A stretch of DNA of 61,076 bases, counting the filler, from Basidiobolus ranarum (lineage: Eukaryota): the NCBI GenBank assembly GCA_040143965.1. It is 12 parts of 12 records of this genome, joined end to end, with 100 filler letters (N's around TTAATTAATTAA, not from the genome) between each part and the next. Parts side by side here need not be neighbours in the genome. Positions count along the whole stretch, not along the records: positions 56,091 to 61,076 come from JASJQH010001756.1; 11 more parts are not named here. The stretch is one strand, 5' to 3'. Below the pieces are notes generated by a model that worked only from the letters and a program-made list of their open reading frames with translations, was not told the origin of the DNA and made no database searches. Every line of letters begins with the position of its first letter. The stretch's first letter is position 1. Shown here piece after piece: positions 5,009 to 61,076 of the stretch. The position numbers and the translations under genes were made by a program.

Positions 5009-5108
5009 NNNNNNNNNNNNNNNNNNNNNNNNNNNNNNNNNNNNNNNNNNNNTTAATTAATTAANNNNNNNNNNNNNNNNNNNNNNNNNNNNNNNNNNNN
5101 NNNNNNNN
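5009..5108. other. Artificial contig linker N44-TTAATTAATTAA-N44; repeated at 10116, 15222, 20326, 25428, 30527, 35624, 40720, 45812, 50902 and 55991
   Basis: Identical 100-nt spacer with a stop-rich core occurs 11 times, and contig lengths decrease monotonically. Confidence 0.99.
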
Positions 5109-10115: not shown

Positions 10116-10556
10116 NNNNNNNNNNNNNNNNNNNNNNNNNNNNNNNNNNNNNNNNNNNNTTAATTAATTAANNNNNNNNNNNNNNNNNNNNNNNNNNNNN
10201 NNNNNNNNNNNNNNNTACCCTAAAGGCGCTACCCTAAAGGCGCTACCCTACCTTGACAATGCTAGTTTAGTCTTAGATTGGTCTGCTTGTAAATTAACAT
10301 TCCATTTTTGTCAAAACTGCACATACATAAAAATATCTAGTTTTTTGATAGTTTTGTTTTGCGCGAGTGTTTGCGTCGTAAATGAGAACATTTCAGCATA
10401 TTTGCTTATTAATGGAAATGTTTACTTGTACTTGCTAATTATGGAGAATCTTTTCATATACTTGATAACTTTATTCTAAACATTGGGTAAACTGATATAG
10501 TGTTATTCTAGCGAGTGGGTAAACTGTGTTATTTTAAACTTGGTTTAAGGTCGTAA

Positions 10557-55990: not shown

Positions 55991-56352
55991 NNNNNNNNNN
56001 NNNNNNNNNNNNNNNNNNNNNNNNNNNNNNNNNNTTAATTAATTAANNNNNNNNNNNNNNNNNNNNNNNNNNNNNNNNNNNNNNNNNNNNACGCATCATC
56101 CACCACTTAATTAAACACACAATTAGTGATGCTCTTGTGATTATAATTGATTCTCAGAAGAGCGTATTTCCAGTTAGATAAAATCGCTTATTTTAATGAA
56201 ACCACTTTGTTTATTTACACAATTACTTCCAAAAGTTGAGGAGTGAAGCTATATAAGCTTGGATAGTCCCTGACTCTGGTGGTTGCAGATTATCACCATT
56301 TATTCTGCTCCAACCTTAATACGCATCTTGATATCTGCTGATACTATACCAG

Positions 56353-56994
56353 ATGGACTTCTCACCTTTTACGCGCTTCTATTTCCCTTTAACAAAGGGC
56401 AACGGCTATGAATATATGGAAACCATTTCCGATCAGACTCAATATCTCTTTCGTTATAAGTACAAAATGCATCACAACCAGACCCTCACCAAGTACGGCT
56501 ACCTAGTTACCGGCTCTTCGAAAGAGATGATTTTCCATATGTCCATAGTTGATAAGCATCAGGTAGCCAATGAGAAAAGACTCATGAAAGAGATCAGGAA
56601 GGACCCTAGAGTACCAAACAACCTGACTGTACTTGATCATTCCACAGCCTCAGCTGTACGGTACGAAATCCAGCAAAGACACCGAAACAAGATCCGCCTG
56701 ACACACAAACCTTCCATCATCGACAATCACTTTACCAAGATCAAGCGAAAAATATCTTTTGAGAAGCTCTTATCTCCACCACCCCCACAAAGTAGGAAGC
56801 TGAAGTTTGACGATATAGACATCATATTCCCATACGATCCAGAAGCGCCCTCCTCGATTGTGTCAGATCCGGTTAAGATTGGGCTGACAACCACGCCTCC
56901 AAAAAGTGCTCTGAAATCACCTTTATGCAAGCAGGGGAAATTGGCCGAACGGTTATTCAAGCGCGCTTCTTTTTTGATTCTGGCCAAATCTTAA
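56353..56994 (+). CDS. Hypothetical protein, 213 aa, intronless
   Basis: Long open frame in AT-rich DNA with a basic, Pro-rich C-terminus; no family recognised. Confidence 0.5.
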   Translation: MDFSPFTRFYFPLTKGNGYEYMETISDQTQYLFRYKYKMHHNQTLTKYGYLVTGSSKEMIFHMSIVDKHQVANEKRLMKEIRKDPRVPNNLTVLDHSTASAVRYEIQQRHRNKIRLTHKPSIIDNHFTKIKRKISFEKLLSPPPPQSRKLKFDDIDIIFPYDPEAPSSIVSDPVKIGLTTTPPKSALKSPLCKQGKLAERLFKRASFLILAKS

Positions 56995-58026
56995 AGGGTC
57001 TCGTACACACTATAGCTGCTGTATCGCTTTTCGGACCGCCCCCTCATTTTTGAATATACCACCTTTGCTCCCATATCATCCGAGGCTAGTGAACCTACAC
57101 AAACCTTACCCTTCCTCATGTAGTCTGTTCACTGGTCGCTAATTGATCTATTAATTCGTAGATTTAAGTGCTTTGAGAGTAGTAGTATTTTTGCTTCTAA
57201 ATCAGGTACAGCTCTACTGGCCTCTAGTGGATCTCTTTCGGATTGGTCATAACTGGAAATTGAACTTGTATATCTCAATTCTGACATGTTTGAAGAGTCT
57301 CAGAACAGATACACTACGCTTTTGGTTACTTCTTTTGCCCAAGTAATCGATACTCTCATTCTACTTGTCCCTACCTTTTAGATACTTTCAACCCCCTTTC
57401 ATTTATAGATGACGAGATTTTCGGTTAGAGTAGAAGGTTAAGAATCATAGCCTTCTACTTTCCCCGGTGAAATAATCCATAGTCTCTCGTCGTTGTTAAC
57501 CTATTCCAAATGGCGGATTCCAAGCTAATTCAATTTAAATACCCTCTTCTAAACCTCATTATGAGTTTCATCGGGATTTGGAGCTACTACTTTATTTTAC
57601 CCATAATATAATACTTACATTTTATTTTGAAGAAGGAACCCAACGCCAACATATAGACTGAGAATAATAAAGATCTTTCTATTGATCGTGCAGAGTTAGT
57701 TCCTATGTAGGCAGTGCTAATTTTGGATAAGTCATCCTATGAATCAAAGACCTTCAATTAATTGACTCGTTGGGTTCGTTTGAATTTTCTCCGTCAAAAT
57801 AAGCCCGTCGTGTTTATGAAAGATTTGTAAATACTTCGAAGTAACTATCATCCTAATTTATCTGGCTAAGCGTAGTGATGATAGGCTGAGGCCAAATACC
57901 AGGTTAATGGTTGGGCCTGGCCCTCACCTCACATAAAGGCTTCAGTCTTGCTTATTTACCTCAACACCTCTATTCACACTAGTTTTCTACACTACGCAAG
58001 GAACGAGAAACTCGTAACTTCAACCT

Positions 58027-59747
<1,721 letters not shown>

Positions 59748-60099
59748 CTCAAGTCATGGCAAATTTGTTCGCTTTTTTAGTCGGCTTGGGCAGTCAAAAG
59801 GCTGTGAAGCCATTACTCATAAATATTTGTAATAGACGCTCATTAGATGTATACGATCTAGGCAAATAAACTCTGAATACAGTATTTTACTCTAAAAAGA
59901 GACGATCTGAGAATTAAAGTTAGACACTCTGCCTACTTTTCAAGGACAAGTAGAAGATAGTGTTTTACCTTTAAAAATAGTATAAGACAGATTACGAGAA
60001 TAGAAATAACACTCCTTTCAACTTATATGCGCTTACAAAATTTATAGCATAAAATGGATATGAGTAGAAAAAAGATGACAGATGTTCATTATTATGTAA

Positions 60100-61076
60100 A
60101 TGTATACATTAATGTAGTAAATTTTATACTATTCAAAGAAAGTTGATATGTGGTATAGTCGCGCGAGGTACTTTCAAAATGTTTTTGCAAACCTTATAAA
60201 AACTGATGGTTACTCTGCTGATGTAGTTGTTTACAAACCAATGCCCAAACACTTTGATAGCACCAAGGAGGACTATGTTATAGAAGATCTGAAGGAAGCC
60301 TTGCAGCAAGACGAAAACCTGAATGATTTTTGCTTAACAGCAATCGACCCTGGTCGCTCTTGCGTCTGGTGGTGAAAATGGAAAATACCAGATAAGAAGA
60401 TTTACAAGAAAAGAGTATGATGTGTGCTCTGGTTCTGCAAGATTGGCAAAGAAAGAACTTGAAAGAGCTAGAAATGAAGATATGCTGACCATCATCACGA
60501 ACGAACCGACTGCCAAAACAGTTTCACTACAAAAGTATGTTACCTCGAATACATAAAGTCAAACATGCAAAAATGCTTTGATTTCTATAGTAGTACTACT
60601 GTAAAGAACAGGTTTTATTTGTATCAAGGACACCAGAGAGCGCAAGAAGAAATGGTTAATGTCTTGTTAGATGGTGGAAGAAAGTATAATCGTAAAAAAG
60701 GAACCATACAAAAAAGAACCGAAAGAGAAGAAAGGAAGGAGAAGGCAAGAGAGGGCCGAAAAAAAGGATAAAGAAAGGTAAATATCACAGCATCTCTTTT
60801 TTTTACCAAAAATGTCTAAACCTCATATATAATCATGTCATGTAGATGGAGGTCAGTGACATTCAAGTATAACAAGGACAAAGCCCCTATTATTGCTTTC
60901 GGGAATGGCATGAAGGGAAAGGACTCATCGAAAATCAACGGACATCAAGTAGGCCTAACTGGAAGTCTATATCGCCTCTTAAAGTGCCAAGAGAAAGAAA
61001 GAAGGCTTTTGGTTGTATATGTTGACGAATTTCGGACATCAAAAGTAAAGTTGAACAAAATGGCCTTTATTGTTAT
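60100..61076 (+). pseudogene. Fanzor1 (eukaryotic TnpB-like RuvC nuclease), frameshifted, intron-containing; 3' end truncated
   Basis: IKTDGYSA, RuvC-I AIDPGR (Asp codon at 60346), IRRFTRKEY, PTAKT, RFYLYQGHQRA, IIAFGNG and RuvC-II VDEFRTSK (Glu codon at 61027). GT-AG intron at 60778-60845. Confidence 0.85.

What the first reader, a model, noticed from the sequence alone, without database searches (positions are those of the whole stretch)
60100..61076. Intron-containing Fanzor1 (eukaryotic TnpB/Cas12-like RNA-guided nuclease) hidden across several frames
Seen in the sequence: stitching frames gives FANLIKTDGYSADVV...LTAIDPGRS/LASGGENGKYQIRRFTRKEYDVCSGS...EPTAKTVSLQKY/...FDFY...KNRFYLYQGHQRAQEEMVNVLLDGGRKYN, a Lys/Arg-rich stretch, an intron (60778-60845), then WRSVTFKYNKDKAPIIAFGNGMKGKDSSKINGHQVG...VYVDEFRTSK and a probable second donor (GTAAAG, about 61045). 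Established: TDG, DPG (RuvC-I), xFGxG and DExxTSK (RuvC-II) in this order are the Fanzor1 signature, normally followed by a zinc finger, RuvC-III and an omegaRNA at the element's right end. The ORF track shows only small pieces, so annotation would miss it. Inference: this copy has at least three frameshifts and is probably dead, but it points to a spliced Fanzor family in this genome that may have intact copies and its own omegaRNA, TAM and host transposon.
Basis: partly seen in the sequence, partly recalled or inferred. Interest (0 to 1): 0.82.

Follow-up and report, generated by a model that had tools for sequence, protein, structure and literature searches.

The report
Dead Fanzor1 nuclease gene fragment
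The end of this fungal contig carries a broken, truncated copy of a Fanzor1 gene, a eukaryotic transposon-borne relative of the Cas12 and TnpB RNA-guided nucleases; it is an ordinary pseudogene of a family already known from related fungi.

Summary
Four stop-free pieces in different + strand frames between 60175 and 61046 match one protein family in colinear order (E 7e-26 to 5e-08; no other piece of the window reaches E 1). A profile of that family hits the solved Fanzor1 structures of Spizellomyces (E 1.1e-15) and Parasitella (2.3e-10). Eight of eleven family members scanned pass Pfam's Cas12f1-like TNB cut-off. An AlphaFold model of one member finds Fanzor, Cas12f and TnpB folds first.

The window copy is dead and incomplete:
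- About 280 N-terminal profile positions are absent from the contig.
- There are four frame changes, one with a loss of about four residues just after the RuvC-I aspartate.
- The contig ends 30 nt after the RuvC-II motif, so the zinc finger, RuvC-III and omegaRNA cannot be seen.

The 68-nt intron (60778-60845) is the one used by an NCBI gene model, a partial hypothetical protein of Basidiobolus ranarum. The "window" is 12 unrelated ~5-kb contigs joined by N linkers.

Intron-bearing Fanzor1 genes in early-diverging fungi are already published. Interest: low.

The parts
60175..60360 (+). Piece A (frame 1): WED-strand 'TDG' motif (60202-60210) to the RuvC-I motif AIDPGRS (catalytic Asp codon 60346-60348). 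Homology to the family starts at about 60175.
   Evidence: Hits the family profiles at positions 11-69 (A1, E 7.1e-07) and 12-78 (A3, 43.1 bits). It is 42% identical to P0117 and P0120.
60358..60365 (+). Lesion 1: frame 1 to frame 2, with loss of about four residues (relatives have Q-V-F-A/T here) right after the RuvC-I motif.
   Evidence: In alignment A2, relatives read DPNRNQVFAAAYG where the window reads DPGRS / LASGG. Three-frame view.
60362..60541 (+). Piece B (frame 2): ASGGENGKYQIRR...PTAKTVSLQKYV.
   Evidence: Profile positions 74-132 (A1, E 1.3e-10); A3, 53.9 bits; 49% identical to P0117.
60539..60543 (+). Lesion 2: frame 2 to frame 1. The two reading frames share one base (60541), as after loss of a single nucleotide, and the site is not in a homopolymer.
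   Evidence: Piece B aligns up to 60541 and piece C from 60541, at adjacent profile positions 132 and 134.
60541..60699 (+). Piece C (frame 1): YLEYIK...FDFY...RFYLYQGHQRAQEEMVNVLLDGGRKYNRKK (helical part of the RuvC domain).
   Evidence: Profile positions 134-204 (A1, E 1.3e-21); A3, 81.1 bits; 53% identical to P0003.
60694..60777 (+). K/R-rich linker with lesions 3 and 4. Frame 1 to frame 0 happens inside the A6 run 60694-60699, giving KRNHTKKNRKRRK..., which matches the subfamily's KRKNTKKNRKKRK. A further shift to frame 2, somewhere in 60740-60777, is needed to splice into the next exon.
   Evidence: Frame 0 scores 12.7 bits against subfamily profile A3 (i-E 0.003, Z 1000); frame 2 scores -0.1. 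Three-frame view. The exact place of lesion 4 is not resolved.
60778..60845 (+). Intron, 68 nt, GTAAAT...TAG.
   Evidence: The NCBI model P0001 equals 60671-60777 joined to 60846-61046. The exon-sized relative P0002 starts 5 residues before the same point. No RNA evidence was available.
60846..61046 (+). Exon D (frame 1): WRSVTFKYNK..IIAFGNGMKGKD...VYVDEFRTSK. It carries the vestigial canonical RuvC-II site (FGNG) and the relocated catalytic Glu (in DEF) about 40-42 residues later.
   Evidence: phmmer found 109 hits at E <= 1e-3. Profile positions 220-288, E 1.3e-25. 64% identical to P0002. The relocated Glu is as described in PMC10530073.
61047..61076 (+). GTAAAG donor of a second intron, then the contig end. 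The zinc finger, RuvC-III and any omegaRNA lie beyond the sequence.
   Evidence: 27 of 63 motif-bearing relatives called as plain ORFs break off within 50 residues after TSK/TSQ, with a V-initial (GTx) tail lacking the CxxC finger; 23 of 63 go straight on with CxxC. P0002 shares VKL (GTAAAGTTG) past the motif. The contig ends at 61076.
58537..59747 (+). Neighbour, not part of the element: a multi-exon MYST-family histone acetyltransferase gene, stop codon at 59745-59747, about 430 nt upstream of the first Fanzor homology.
   Evidence: Pfam zf-MYST E 1.8e-22. MOZ_SAS covered colinearly at positions 23-79, 71-104 and 103-180 by three open exon pieces.

Best explanation
This is a decayed, 5'-truncated copy of a Fanzor1 gene, the transposon-borne eukaryotic homologue of TnpB/Cas12, sitting at the very end of a 4,986-bp contig. 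NCBI's record for the identical protein names the organism Basidiobolus ranarum.

Intact members of the family are omegaRNA-guided DNA endonucleases with one RuvC active site (Asp, relocated Glu, Asp) and a zinc-finger TNB domain. This copy keeps only the stretch from the last WED strand (TDG) through RuvC-I (DPG) to the relocated RuvC-II glutamate (DEF-R-TSK). That stretch is interrupted by four frame changes and a small deletion next to the catalytic aspartate, and it lacks the whole REC/WED N-terminal half. It most likely does nothing: it is a relic of an old insertion just downstream of a MYST acetyltransferase gene.

Shown here: the family identity, the colinearity of the pieces, the lesions, the truncation and the intron positions. 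Inferred: the non-function and the transposon origin.
For: 1. Exhaustive phmmer with the last exon found 109 proteins at E <= 1e-3. One of them, P0010, is an unrelated Ig-repeat/Hint protein.
2. Pieces A, B and C were not used to find those relatives. They hit the relatives' profile in colinear order at E 7.1e-07, 1.3e-10 and 1.3e-21, next to D at 1.3e-25. In the whole window no other of 3095 pieces reaches E <= 1.
3. Profile A1 against the PDB: SpuFz1 (8gkh and others) E 1.1e-15, PpFz1 (9cf0 and others) E 2.3e-10, with the DPG, DE-x-x-TS-x-C-x-x-C and W-N-R-D segments aligned. TranC, Cas12g and Cas12f follow at E 0.0017 and weaker.
4. Pfam PF07282 Cas12f1-like_TNB is above its cut-off in 5 of 8 relatives scanned (2 below cut-off; 1 ends before the domain). 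It is above cut-off in all 3 family members among the 4 proteins scanned; the fourth protein was the unrelated P0010.
5. The AlphaFold2 model of P0021 has pLDDT 75.3 and pTM 0.68. Foldseek against the PDB gave 14 matches at E <= 1e-3, all Fanzor1, Fanzor2 or Cas12f; the best is SpuFz at E 1.8e-09.
6. The published Fanzor/TnpB signature is D-X(125,275)-[TS][TS]-X-X-C4-X(5,50)-RD (PMC3627910, passage read). The window has about 207 codons from the Asp to TS (60346 to 61038 minus the 68-nt intron).
7. Decay: profile positions 1-282 of 651 have no match on either strand of the contig. Frames change 1>2>1>0>2. The conserved Q-V-F-A strand is missing.
8. The adjacent MYST gene has open, colinear exons, so the contig is not generally error-ridden.
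Against: - No DNA or RNA reads could be laid on the region, so the four frame changes cannot be told from assembly errors directly. Two of them lie in or near A-runs.
- No transposon ends, target-site duplications or transposase were found, so 'relic of a transposon' is inferred from the family only.
- The zinc finger and RuvC-III are not on the contig, so the window copy itself meets only part of the family signature.
- Several relatives called as plain ORFs also begin just before the TDG motif. A naturally short form, or an intron at that point, is therefore not excluded.
- Foldseek TM-scores are modest (0.42 normalised to the query).
Confidence: 0.9

Rival explanations
1. This is a live Fanzor1 gene. 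The frame changes are base-calling or assembly errors in a fragmented assembly, and the rest of the gene lies on other contigs.
For: The contig is only 4,986 bp and ends inside the gene. The 1>0 frame change sits in the A6 run at 60694-60699, and the unplaced 0>2 change may sit in the A7 run at 60759-60765. Both catalytic residues that can be seen (Asp in DPG, Glu in DEF) are intact.
Against: The 2>1 change is not in a homopolymer, and the 1>2 change comes with the loss of about four conserved residues. The neighbouring MYST gene shows no broken exon. The N-terminal ~280 profile positions are absent, while a same-strand host gene ends only about 430 nt upstream. The copy is only 42-64% identical to its nearest relatives, as expected for an old copy.
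Confidence: 0.06
2. This is a naturally short or domesticated derivative. The annotated 102-aa model, or a short protein starting at the Met at 60148, is a real host gene that has lost nuclease function.
For: NCBI carries a gene model over the last two exons. Many relatives called as ORFs start within 1-25 residues of the TDG motif. The last exon is open and 64% identical to P0002.
Against: The model's first exon is read in frame 2, which scores -0.1 bits against the subfamily profile, whereas frame 0 scores 12.7; the model therefore looks like a predictor's artefact. A protein lacking REC/WED, with a broken RuvC-I strand, cannot form the fold seen. The ORF-start pattern is what a prokaryote-style ORF caller gives after any upstream stop.
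Confidence: 0.03
3. The short motifs are a chance collection in AT-rich non-coding DNA.
For: None of the four pieces hits Pfam or NCBIfam on its own, and the last exon alone finds nothing in the PDB.
Against: Four colinear profile hits at E 7e-26 to 5e-08, with no other hit in the window. One hundred and nine database relatives.
Confidence: 0.01

Closest known systems
Spizellomyces punctatus Fanzor1 (SpuFz1; PDB 8gkh, 9ceu-9cez)
   Same: It is the best solved relative of the family profile (E 1.1e-15) and of the AF2 model (E 1.8e-09). The same order of motifs aligns: I-D-P-x-(K/R), helical region with F-Y, D-E-(F/Y)-K-T-S-x-C-x-x-C, W-N-R-D.
   Different: Only 17-18% identical in the structural alignment. 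SpuFz1 is an intact, biochemically active omegaRNA-guided nuclease. The window copy is truncated at both ends and frameshifted, and no omegaRNA can be assessed.
Parasitella parasitica Fanzor1 (PpFz1; PDB 9cf0-9cf3)
   Same: Profile hit E 2.3e-10, including the TDG strand, the DPGR motif and I-D-E-F-R-T-S.
   Different: PpFz1 carries a folded 'FRI' insertion in the RuvC domain that binds cyclophilin (PMC11423790, passages read). At that place (between PpFz1 residues 994 and 1158 of the deposited fusion chain) this family has a K/R-rich linker. The linker is modelled as disordered in P0021: pLDDT is below 50 at residues 203-207 and 209-224, and no secondary structure is assigned between residues 192 and 235.
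Fanzor1 families of Rhizopus oryzae (ROr), Mucor circinelloides (MCi) and Phycomyces blakesleeanus (PBl), Bao & Jurka 2013 (PMC3627910)
   Same: The named relatives of the window copy come from the same group of fungi: Rhizopus, Mucor, Phycomyces, Cokeromyces, Spinellus, Rhizomucor and others. They share the signature D-X(125,275)-[TS][TS]-X-X-C4-X(5,50)-RD.
   Different: I could not compare with the ROr, MCi or PBl sequences themselves; they sit in Repbase or in supplements that were not available. Those elements have defined ends (some MuDR-like TIRs with 9-bp TSDs); none is visible here. The host named by NCBI is Basidiobolus (Basidiobolomycota), for which I found no paper mentioning Fanzor or TnpB.
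Bacterial TnpB (IS200/IS605) and Cas12f
   Same: Same RuvC + TNB fold (Cas12f E 1.3e-04, TnpB 8h1j E 9e-03). Relatives carry the Pfam TNB domain.
   Different: In this family, as in other Fanzors, the canonical RuvC-II Glu position is held by Gly (FGNG), and the acidic residue sits about 40-45 residues downstream in D-E-F-x-T-S (PMC10530073). The assignment of the Gly position is my inference, not a structural superposition. The gene has introns and sits in a eukaryote.

Membership tests
Fanzor/TnpB (signature of Bao & Jurka 2013) | Conserved Asp of RuvC-I | tested here: met
   AIDPGRS (Asp codon 60346-60348) aligns with the DPG(R) column of the family profile. That column aligns with IDPNKR of SpuFz1 and DPGRR of PpFz1.
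Fanzor/TnpB (signature of Bao & Jurka 2013) | 125-275 residues from that Asp to the [TS][TS] pair | tested here: met
   60346 to 61038 minus the 68-nt intron is 624 nt, about 207 codons, counted on the sequence. Signature quoted from PMC3627910.
Fanzor/TnpB (signature of Bao & Jurka 2013) | C4 zinc finger two residues after [TS][TS] | not testable with these tools
   The contig ends 30 nt after TSK. Among relatives, 23 of 63 motif-bearing hits continue directly with CxxC. PF07282 is above cut-off in 8 of 11 family members scanned.
Fanzor/TnpB (signature of Bao & Jurka 2013) | RD of RuvC-III after the zinc finger | not testable with these tools
   It lies beyond the contig end. Among relatives, 12 of 63 show CxxC plus an RD-x-NA-like motif by my regular expression. 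The W-x-R-D-x-N column aligns with SpuFz1 and PpFz1.
Fanzor (rearranged RuvC site, Jiang et al. 2023) | Canonical RuvC-II Glu replaced by Pro or Gly, with an alternative Glu about 45 residues downstream | tested here: inconclusive
   The window has F-G-N-G, and 40-42 residues later D-E-F-R-T-S-K, which fits the description in PMC10530073. I did not superpose on a TnpB structure to prove which residue holds the canonical position.
Fanzor1 as opposed to Fanzor2/TnpB | Closer to Fanzor1 than to Fanzor2 or TnpB representatives | tested here: met
   PDB sequence profile: SpuFz1 1.1e-15 and PpFz1 2.3e-10; no Fanzor2 or TnpB chain was named among the 15 sequences listed at E <= 1, the nearest TnpB-type entries (chains named OrfB_Zn_ribbon or IS605 OrfB) standing at E 0.13 and weaker. 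Fold search: SpuFz 1.8e-09, GtFz 1.9e-05, mimivirus Fanzor2 4e-04, TnpB 9e-03. No tree was built, so the subfamily (1a-1d) is not assigned.
Functional Fanzor1 nuclease | Uninterrupted reading frame with N-terminal REC and WED domains | tested here: not met
   Four frame changes and a deletion. Profile positions 1-282 of 651 are absent from both strands of the contig.
Functional Fanzor1 element | omegaRNA at the 3' end, and defined transposon ends or TSDs | not testable with these tools
   The 3' end is off the contig. No Rfam hit, no tRNA, and no meaningful direct or inverted repeats in 59700-61076.

The most novel reading that the evidence does not exclude
Basidiobolus, a phylum-level lineage for which I found no Fanzor or TnpB paper, harbours its own spliced Fanzor1 lineage. 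That lineage has two conserved intron positions flanking the RuvC-II exon and an NLS-like K/R-rich linker where PpFz1 has its cyclophilin-binding FRI domain. On this reading, intact and active copies with their own omegaRNA and TAM exist elsewhere in the genome. The evidence in hand is two divergent copies (42-46% identical) on two contigs, which argues for an old, diversified family rather than a single stray insertion.
Probability: 0.2. Interest if true: 0.35.

Novelty: new member of a known kind. Interest (0 to 1): 0.15.

Why it matters
It matters little in itself. A dead fragment adds one more host lineage to the long list of fungi with Fanzor1, a family described in 2013 and shown in 2023 to be RNA-guided nucleases, introns included.

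Its practical value is as a pointer. The full Basidiobolus assembly may hold intact copies of a divergent Fanzor1 clade, which could interest people collecting compact eukaryotic genome editors.

It also shows two annotation problems. The existing NCBI gene model over this locus is probably a predictor's artefact on a pseudogene. And many database 'proteins' of this family are single exons called by prokaryote-style ORF finders.

Tried and rejected
- Pfam and NCBIfam on the four pieces alone: only sub-threshold chance matches.
- Word-indexed homologue search with the last exon, 'longer' lengths: nothing.
- phmmer of the last exon against the PDB: only globin noise at E 0.2.
- tblastn of the pieces against the window: no second copy.
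- Family profiles against all six frames of the 12 contigs: no zinc-finger, RuvC-III or N-terminal part anywhere else in the window.
- Whole genome: not held.
Neither the frameshifts nor the introns could therefore be checked on reads.
- Metagenome scan with subfamily alignment A3: 172 pattern matches, none confirmed. I did not use the second scan.
- BLASTP of frame 0 of the K/R linker against P0118: no alignment (low-complexity sequence). The profile comparison was used instead.
- Earlier findings of this scan: nothing for this genome or sequence. One unrelated red-alga Fanzor pseudogene came up and was not used.
- An in-frame read-through from piece C to piece D (both frame 1) without an intron: rejected. 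It passes two stop codons and a hydrophobic stretch unlike any relative.
- P0010 (3717 aa, 8 matched stretches): an unrelated Ig-repeat/Hint protein, dropped from the family.
- Supplements of the Fanzor papers, which hold the host lists, were closed. Whether Basidiobolus appears in them is unknown.
Full report
**What the window is.** The 61,076-base window is not one stretch of genome. It holds 22 runs of 44 N, arranged in 11 pairs, each pair flanking the 12-mer TTAATTAATTAA. The 12 segments between the linkers are 5008, 5007, 5006, 5004, 5002, 4999, 4997, 4996, 4992, 4990, 4989 and 4986 bases long. These are small contigs sorted by size and strung together. The finding lies on the last one, 56091-61076, and that contig simply ends at 61076. 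The database look-up agrees: the protein identical to this locus's gene model is recorded on one contig of 4,986 bases. Nothing left of 56091 is physical context.

**The observation.**
- Piece A, frame 1, 60121-60375, ends ...FANLIKTDG...AIDPGRS.
- Piece B, frame 2, 60338-60556, reads LASGGENGKYQIRR...PTAKTVSLQKYV.
- Piece C, frame 1, 60478-60771, reads YLEYIK...FDFY...RFYLYQGHQRAQEEMVNVLLDGGRKYN, followed by a Lys/Arg-rich run.
- Piece D, frame 1, 60820-61074, reads WRSVTFKYNK...IIAFGNGMKGKD...VYVDEFRTSK.

The proposed intron 60778-60845 is 68 nt, GTAAAT...TAG. A GTAAAG follows the TSK codon at 61047.

**Is it more than chance?** On their own the pieces hit nothing in Pfam, NCBIfam or the PDB. 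An exhaustive phmmer search with the last exon (60847-61047, 67 aa) against 1.84 billion representatives gave 109 proteins at E <= 1e-3 and 8 at E <= 1e-10. One of these, P0010, is an unrelated 3717-aa Ig-repeat/Hint protein, and I drop it.

I aligned ten of the longer hits (A1) and searched the resulting profile against the six-frame pieces of the contig. Four pieces matched in colinear order:
- D: E 1.3e-25, profile positions 220-288
- C: E 1.3e-21, positions 134-204
- B: E 1.3e-10, positions 74-132
- A: E 7.1e-07, positions 11-69

The next best piece scored E 0.55. Pieces A, B and C played no part in selecting those relatives, so this is independent support. With a 32-sequence profile (A4) against all 3095 pieces of the whole window, the same four are the only hits with E <= 1.

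**What family it is.**
- Profile A1 against all PDB sequences hits Spizellomyces punctatus Fanzor1 (8gkh, 9ceu-9cez) at E 1.1e-15 and Parasitella parasitica Fanzor1 (9cf0-3) at E 2.3e-10. TranC, Cas12g and Cas12f follow at E 0.0017 and weaker.
- The aligned blocks are the RuvC-I strand (I-D-P), the helical region up to Y-Q-x-x-Q-R, and D-E-(F/Y)-K-T-S-x-C-x-x-C ... W-N-R-D.
- Pfam's Cas12f1-like TNB domain (PF07282) passes its curated cut-off in 5 of 8 relatives. Two fall below it, and one ends before the domain. It also passes in all 3 family members scanned.
- An AlphaFold2 model of the 350-aa relative P0021, built with alignment A4, has pLDDT 75.3 and pTM 0.68.
- Foldseek against the PDB returns 14 matches at E <= 1e-3, all Fanzor1, Fanzor2 or Cas12f. 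SpuFz is first (E 1.8e-09, TM 0.42 on the query) and TnpB stands at E 9e-03.
- Of the 109 hits, 63 contain the [DN]E[FY]xTS[KQIR] motif by my regular expression. Of those, 23 continue at once with CxxC, and 12 of the 23 also show an RD-x-NA-like RuvC-III motif.

**Comparison with the published signatures.** Bao & Jurka's Fanzor/TnpB signature is D-X(125,275)-[TS][TS]-X-X-C4-X(5,50)-RD (PMC3627910, passage read). In the window the Asp codon is at 60346 and the Thr codon at 61038. After removing the intron that is about 207 codons, inside the range. Jiang et al. report that Fanzors have Pro or Gly at the canonical RuvC-II glutamate and a compensating Glu about 45 residues on (PMC10530073, passages read). 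The window's F-G-N-G, followed 40-42 residues later by D-E-F-R-T-S-K, fits this. I did not prove the equivalence by superposition.

**State of this copy.** It is broken in at least six ways.
1. *5' truncation.* A profile that includes the N-terminal half of full-length relatives (651 positions) matches the contig only from position 283 on; nothing on either strand matches 1-282. A same-strand MYST histone-acetyltransferase gene ends at 59747, about 430 nt upstream of the first homology at about 60175, so there is no room for the missing half.
2. *Frame 1 to 2 at about 60358-60365.* About four conserved residues are lost: relatives read D-P-N-R-N-Q-V-F-A-A-A-Y-G where the window reads D-P-G-R-S / L-A-S-G-G. 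This removes the strand next to the catalytic Asp.
3. *Frame 2 to 1 at 60541.* The two frames share one base, the site is not in a homopolymer, and the profile positions on either side are adjacent (132 and 134).
4. *Frame 1 to 0 in the A6 run 60694-60699.* Frame 0 then reads K-R-N-H-T-K-K-N-R-K-R-R-K, matching the subfamily's K-R-K-N-T-K-K-N-R-K-K-R-K. It scores 12.7 bits against profile A3, against -0.1 for frame 2. This sequence is low-complexity, so the evidence is modest.
5. *Frame 0 to 2.* A further change somewhere in 60740-60777 is needed, because only frame 2 splices in phase across the 68-nt intron into exon D.
6. *3' truncation.* The contig ends 30 nt after TSK.

Pieces C and D are in the same frame, but a read-through between them crosses two stop codons and a hydrophobic stretch unlike any relative, so an intron is the better reading. 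The neighbouring MYST gene has open exons covering zf-MYST and MOZ_SAS positions 23-180 colinearly. That argues, indirectly, that the contig is not riddled with indel errors. I could not check reads.

**The introns.** The 68-nt intron is exactly the one in NCBI's model. P0001 (KAK9760842.1, hypothetical protein K7432_014732, partial, Basidiobolus ranarum) equals 60671-60777 joined to 60846-61046. The locus was therefore not wholly missed by annotation. However, the model's first exon is read in frame 2, which does not match the family, so the model is probably a predictor's artefact on a pseudogene.

Comparative support for both intron positions:
- The closest relative of exon D, P0002 (77 aa, 47 of 73 identical, E 1e-33), begins 5 residues before the exon start. 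It breaks off 5 residues after T-S-Q, sharing V-K-L (GTAAAGTTG in the window).
- P0003 stops one residue after T-S-K.
- 27 of the 63 motif-bearing hits break off within 50 residues after the motif, with a V-initial tail lacking the CxxC finger.
- Seven of the ten members of A3 end inside or shortly after the K/R-rich run; P0003 and P0127 read straight through into the F-G-N-G exon, and P0122 runs on past it.

So the intron is not universal. No RNA evidence was available.

**Relatives and hosts.**
- The second copy named for the same organism, P0120 (K7432_015190, 233 aa, on a 4,409-nt contig), covers the region from about 45 residues before TDG to the K/R run. It is only 42-46% identical to the window's pieces. 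The two copies are therefore old and divergent.
- The best matches to the window pieces are unnamed assemblies: P0002 at 64%, P0003 at 52-53%, P0117 at 49%.
- All other named relatives come from Rhizopus, Mucor, Mycotypha, Gilbertella, Cokeromyces, Helicostylum, Benjaminiella, Phycomyces, Parasitella, Thamnidium, Spinellus and Rhizomucor. From my own knowledge these are Mucorales.
- Full-length models reach 690 aa (Mucor flavus) and 821 aa (Mucor saturninus).
- None of the 70 hits is named Basidiobolus.
- Bao & Jurka already listed Fanzor1 families in Rhizopus oryzae (4), Mucor circinelloides (10) and Phycomyces (3).
- Full-text searches found no paper with Fanzor plus Basidiobolus, or TnpB plus Basidiobolus.

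**How it works.** Intact family members are omegaRNA-guided double-strand DNA endonucleases. They use a single RuvC site and a zinc-finger TNB domain, and they travel within transposons (PMC10530073 and PMC11423790, passages read). This copy cannot work that way. It lacks the REC/WED half that holds the guide RNA, its RuvC-I strand is deleted, and its frame is broken four times. Whether it keeps a zinc finger, RuvC-III or omegaRNA cannot be known from this contig. No repeats, tRNA or Rfam family mark an element boundary. I take it as a relic of an old insertion downstream of the MYST gene (confidence 0.9). The main rival is an assembly-error artefact of a live gene (0.06).

**Verdict.** Its hope of novelty is not borne out: spliced Fanzor1 genes in early-diverging fungi are published, and this copy is a truncated pseudogene. 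The only mildly new point is the host lineage (Basidiobolomycota) and the hint of a diversified family there. Interest 0.15; new (dead) member of a known kind.

Noticed in passing
window 1-61076 (linkers at 5009-5108, 10116-10215, ... 55991-56090): The window is 12 separate contigs of 5008 down to 4986 bases, sorted by length and joined by N44-TTAATTAATTAA-N44 linkers. Features on different segments are not physically linked.
   Followed up: yes
window 58537-59747 (+): A multi-exon MYST-family histone acetyltransferase gene (zf-MYST plus MOZ_SAS) with short introns. It looks intact over the part examined and ends about 430 nt upstream of the Fanzor fragment.
   Followed up: partly
relatives P0021, P0003, P0118 etc. 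(K/R-rich run; window 60690-60777): The family has a Lys/Arg-rich, NLS-like linker inside the RuvC domain. In the P0021 model, residues 203-207 and 209-224 have pLDDT below 50. The linker sits where Parasitella Fanzor1 has its cyclophilin-binding FRI insertion (PpFz1 fusion-chain residues 994-1158 are unaligned).
   Followed up: no
P0114 (member of the P0021 cluster): A 170-aa member of this fungal Fanzor1 cluster is deposited as a partial hypothetical protein of Klebsiella pneumoniae on a 535-nt contig. This is probably fungal contamination of a bacterial assembly.
   Followed up: no
P0165: A family member by profile (E 2.4e-70) carries the source name 'dTDP-fucopyranose mutase [Mucor velutinosus]'. 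This is likely a misannotation or a fused gene model.
   Followed up: no
P0010: A 3717-aa protein with Ig-like repeats and a Hint domain scored E 2.2e-10 against the 67-aa exon through 8 repeated short stretches. It is a false positive of the exhaustive search.
   Followed up: yes
relatives P0020, P0021, P0117, P0119, P0056: Many ORF-called relatives begin at a Met 1-25 residues before the TDG motif, as does the window (Met at 60148). This could mark a conserved intron just upstream, or recurrent 5' truncation at one point. It is unresolved.
   Followed up: partly
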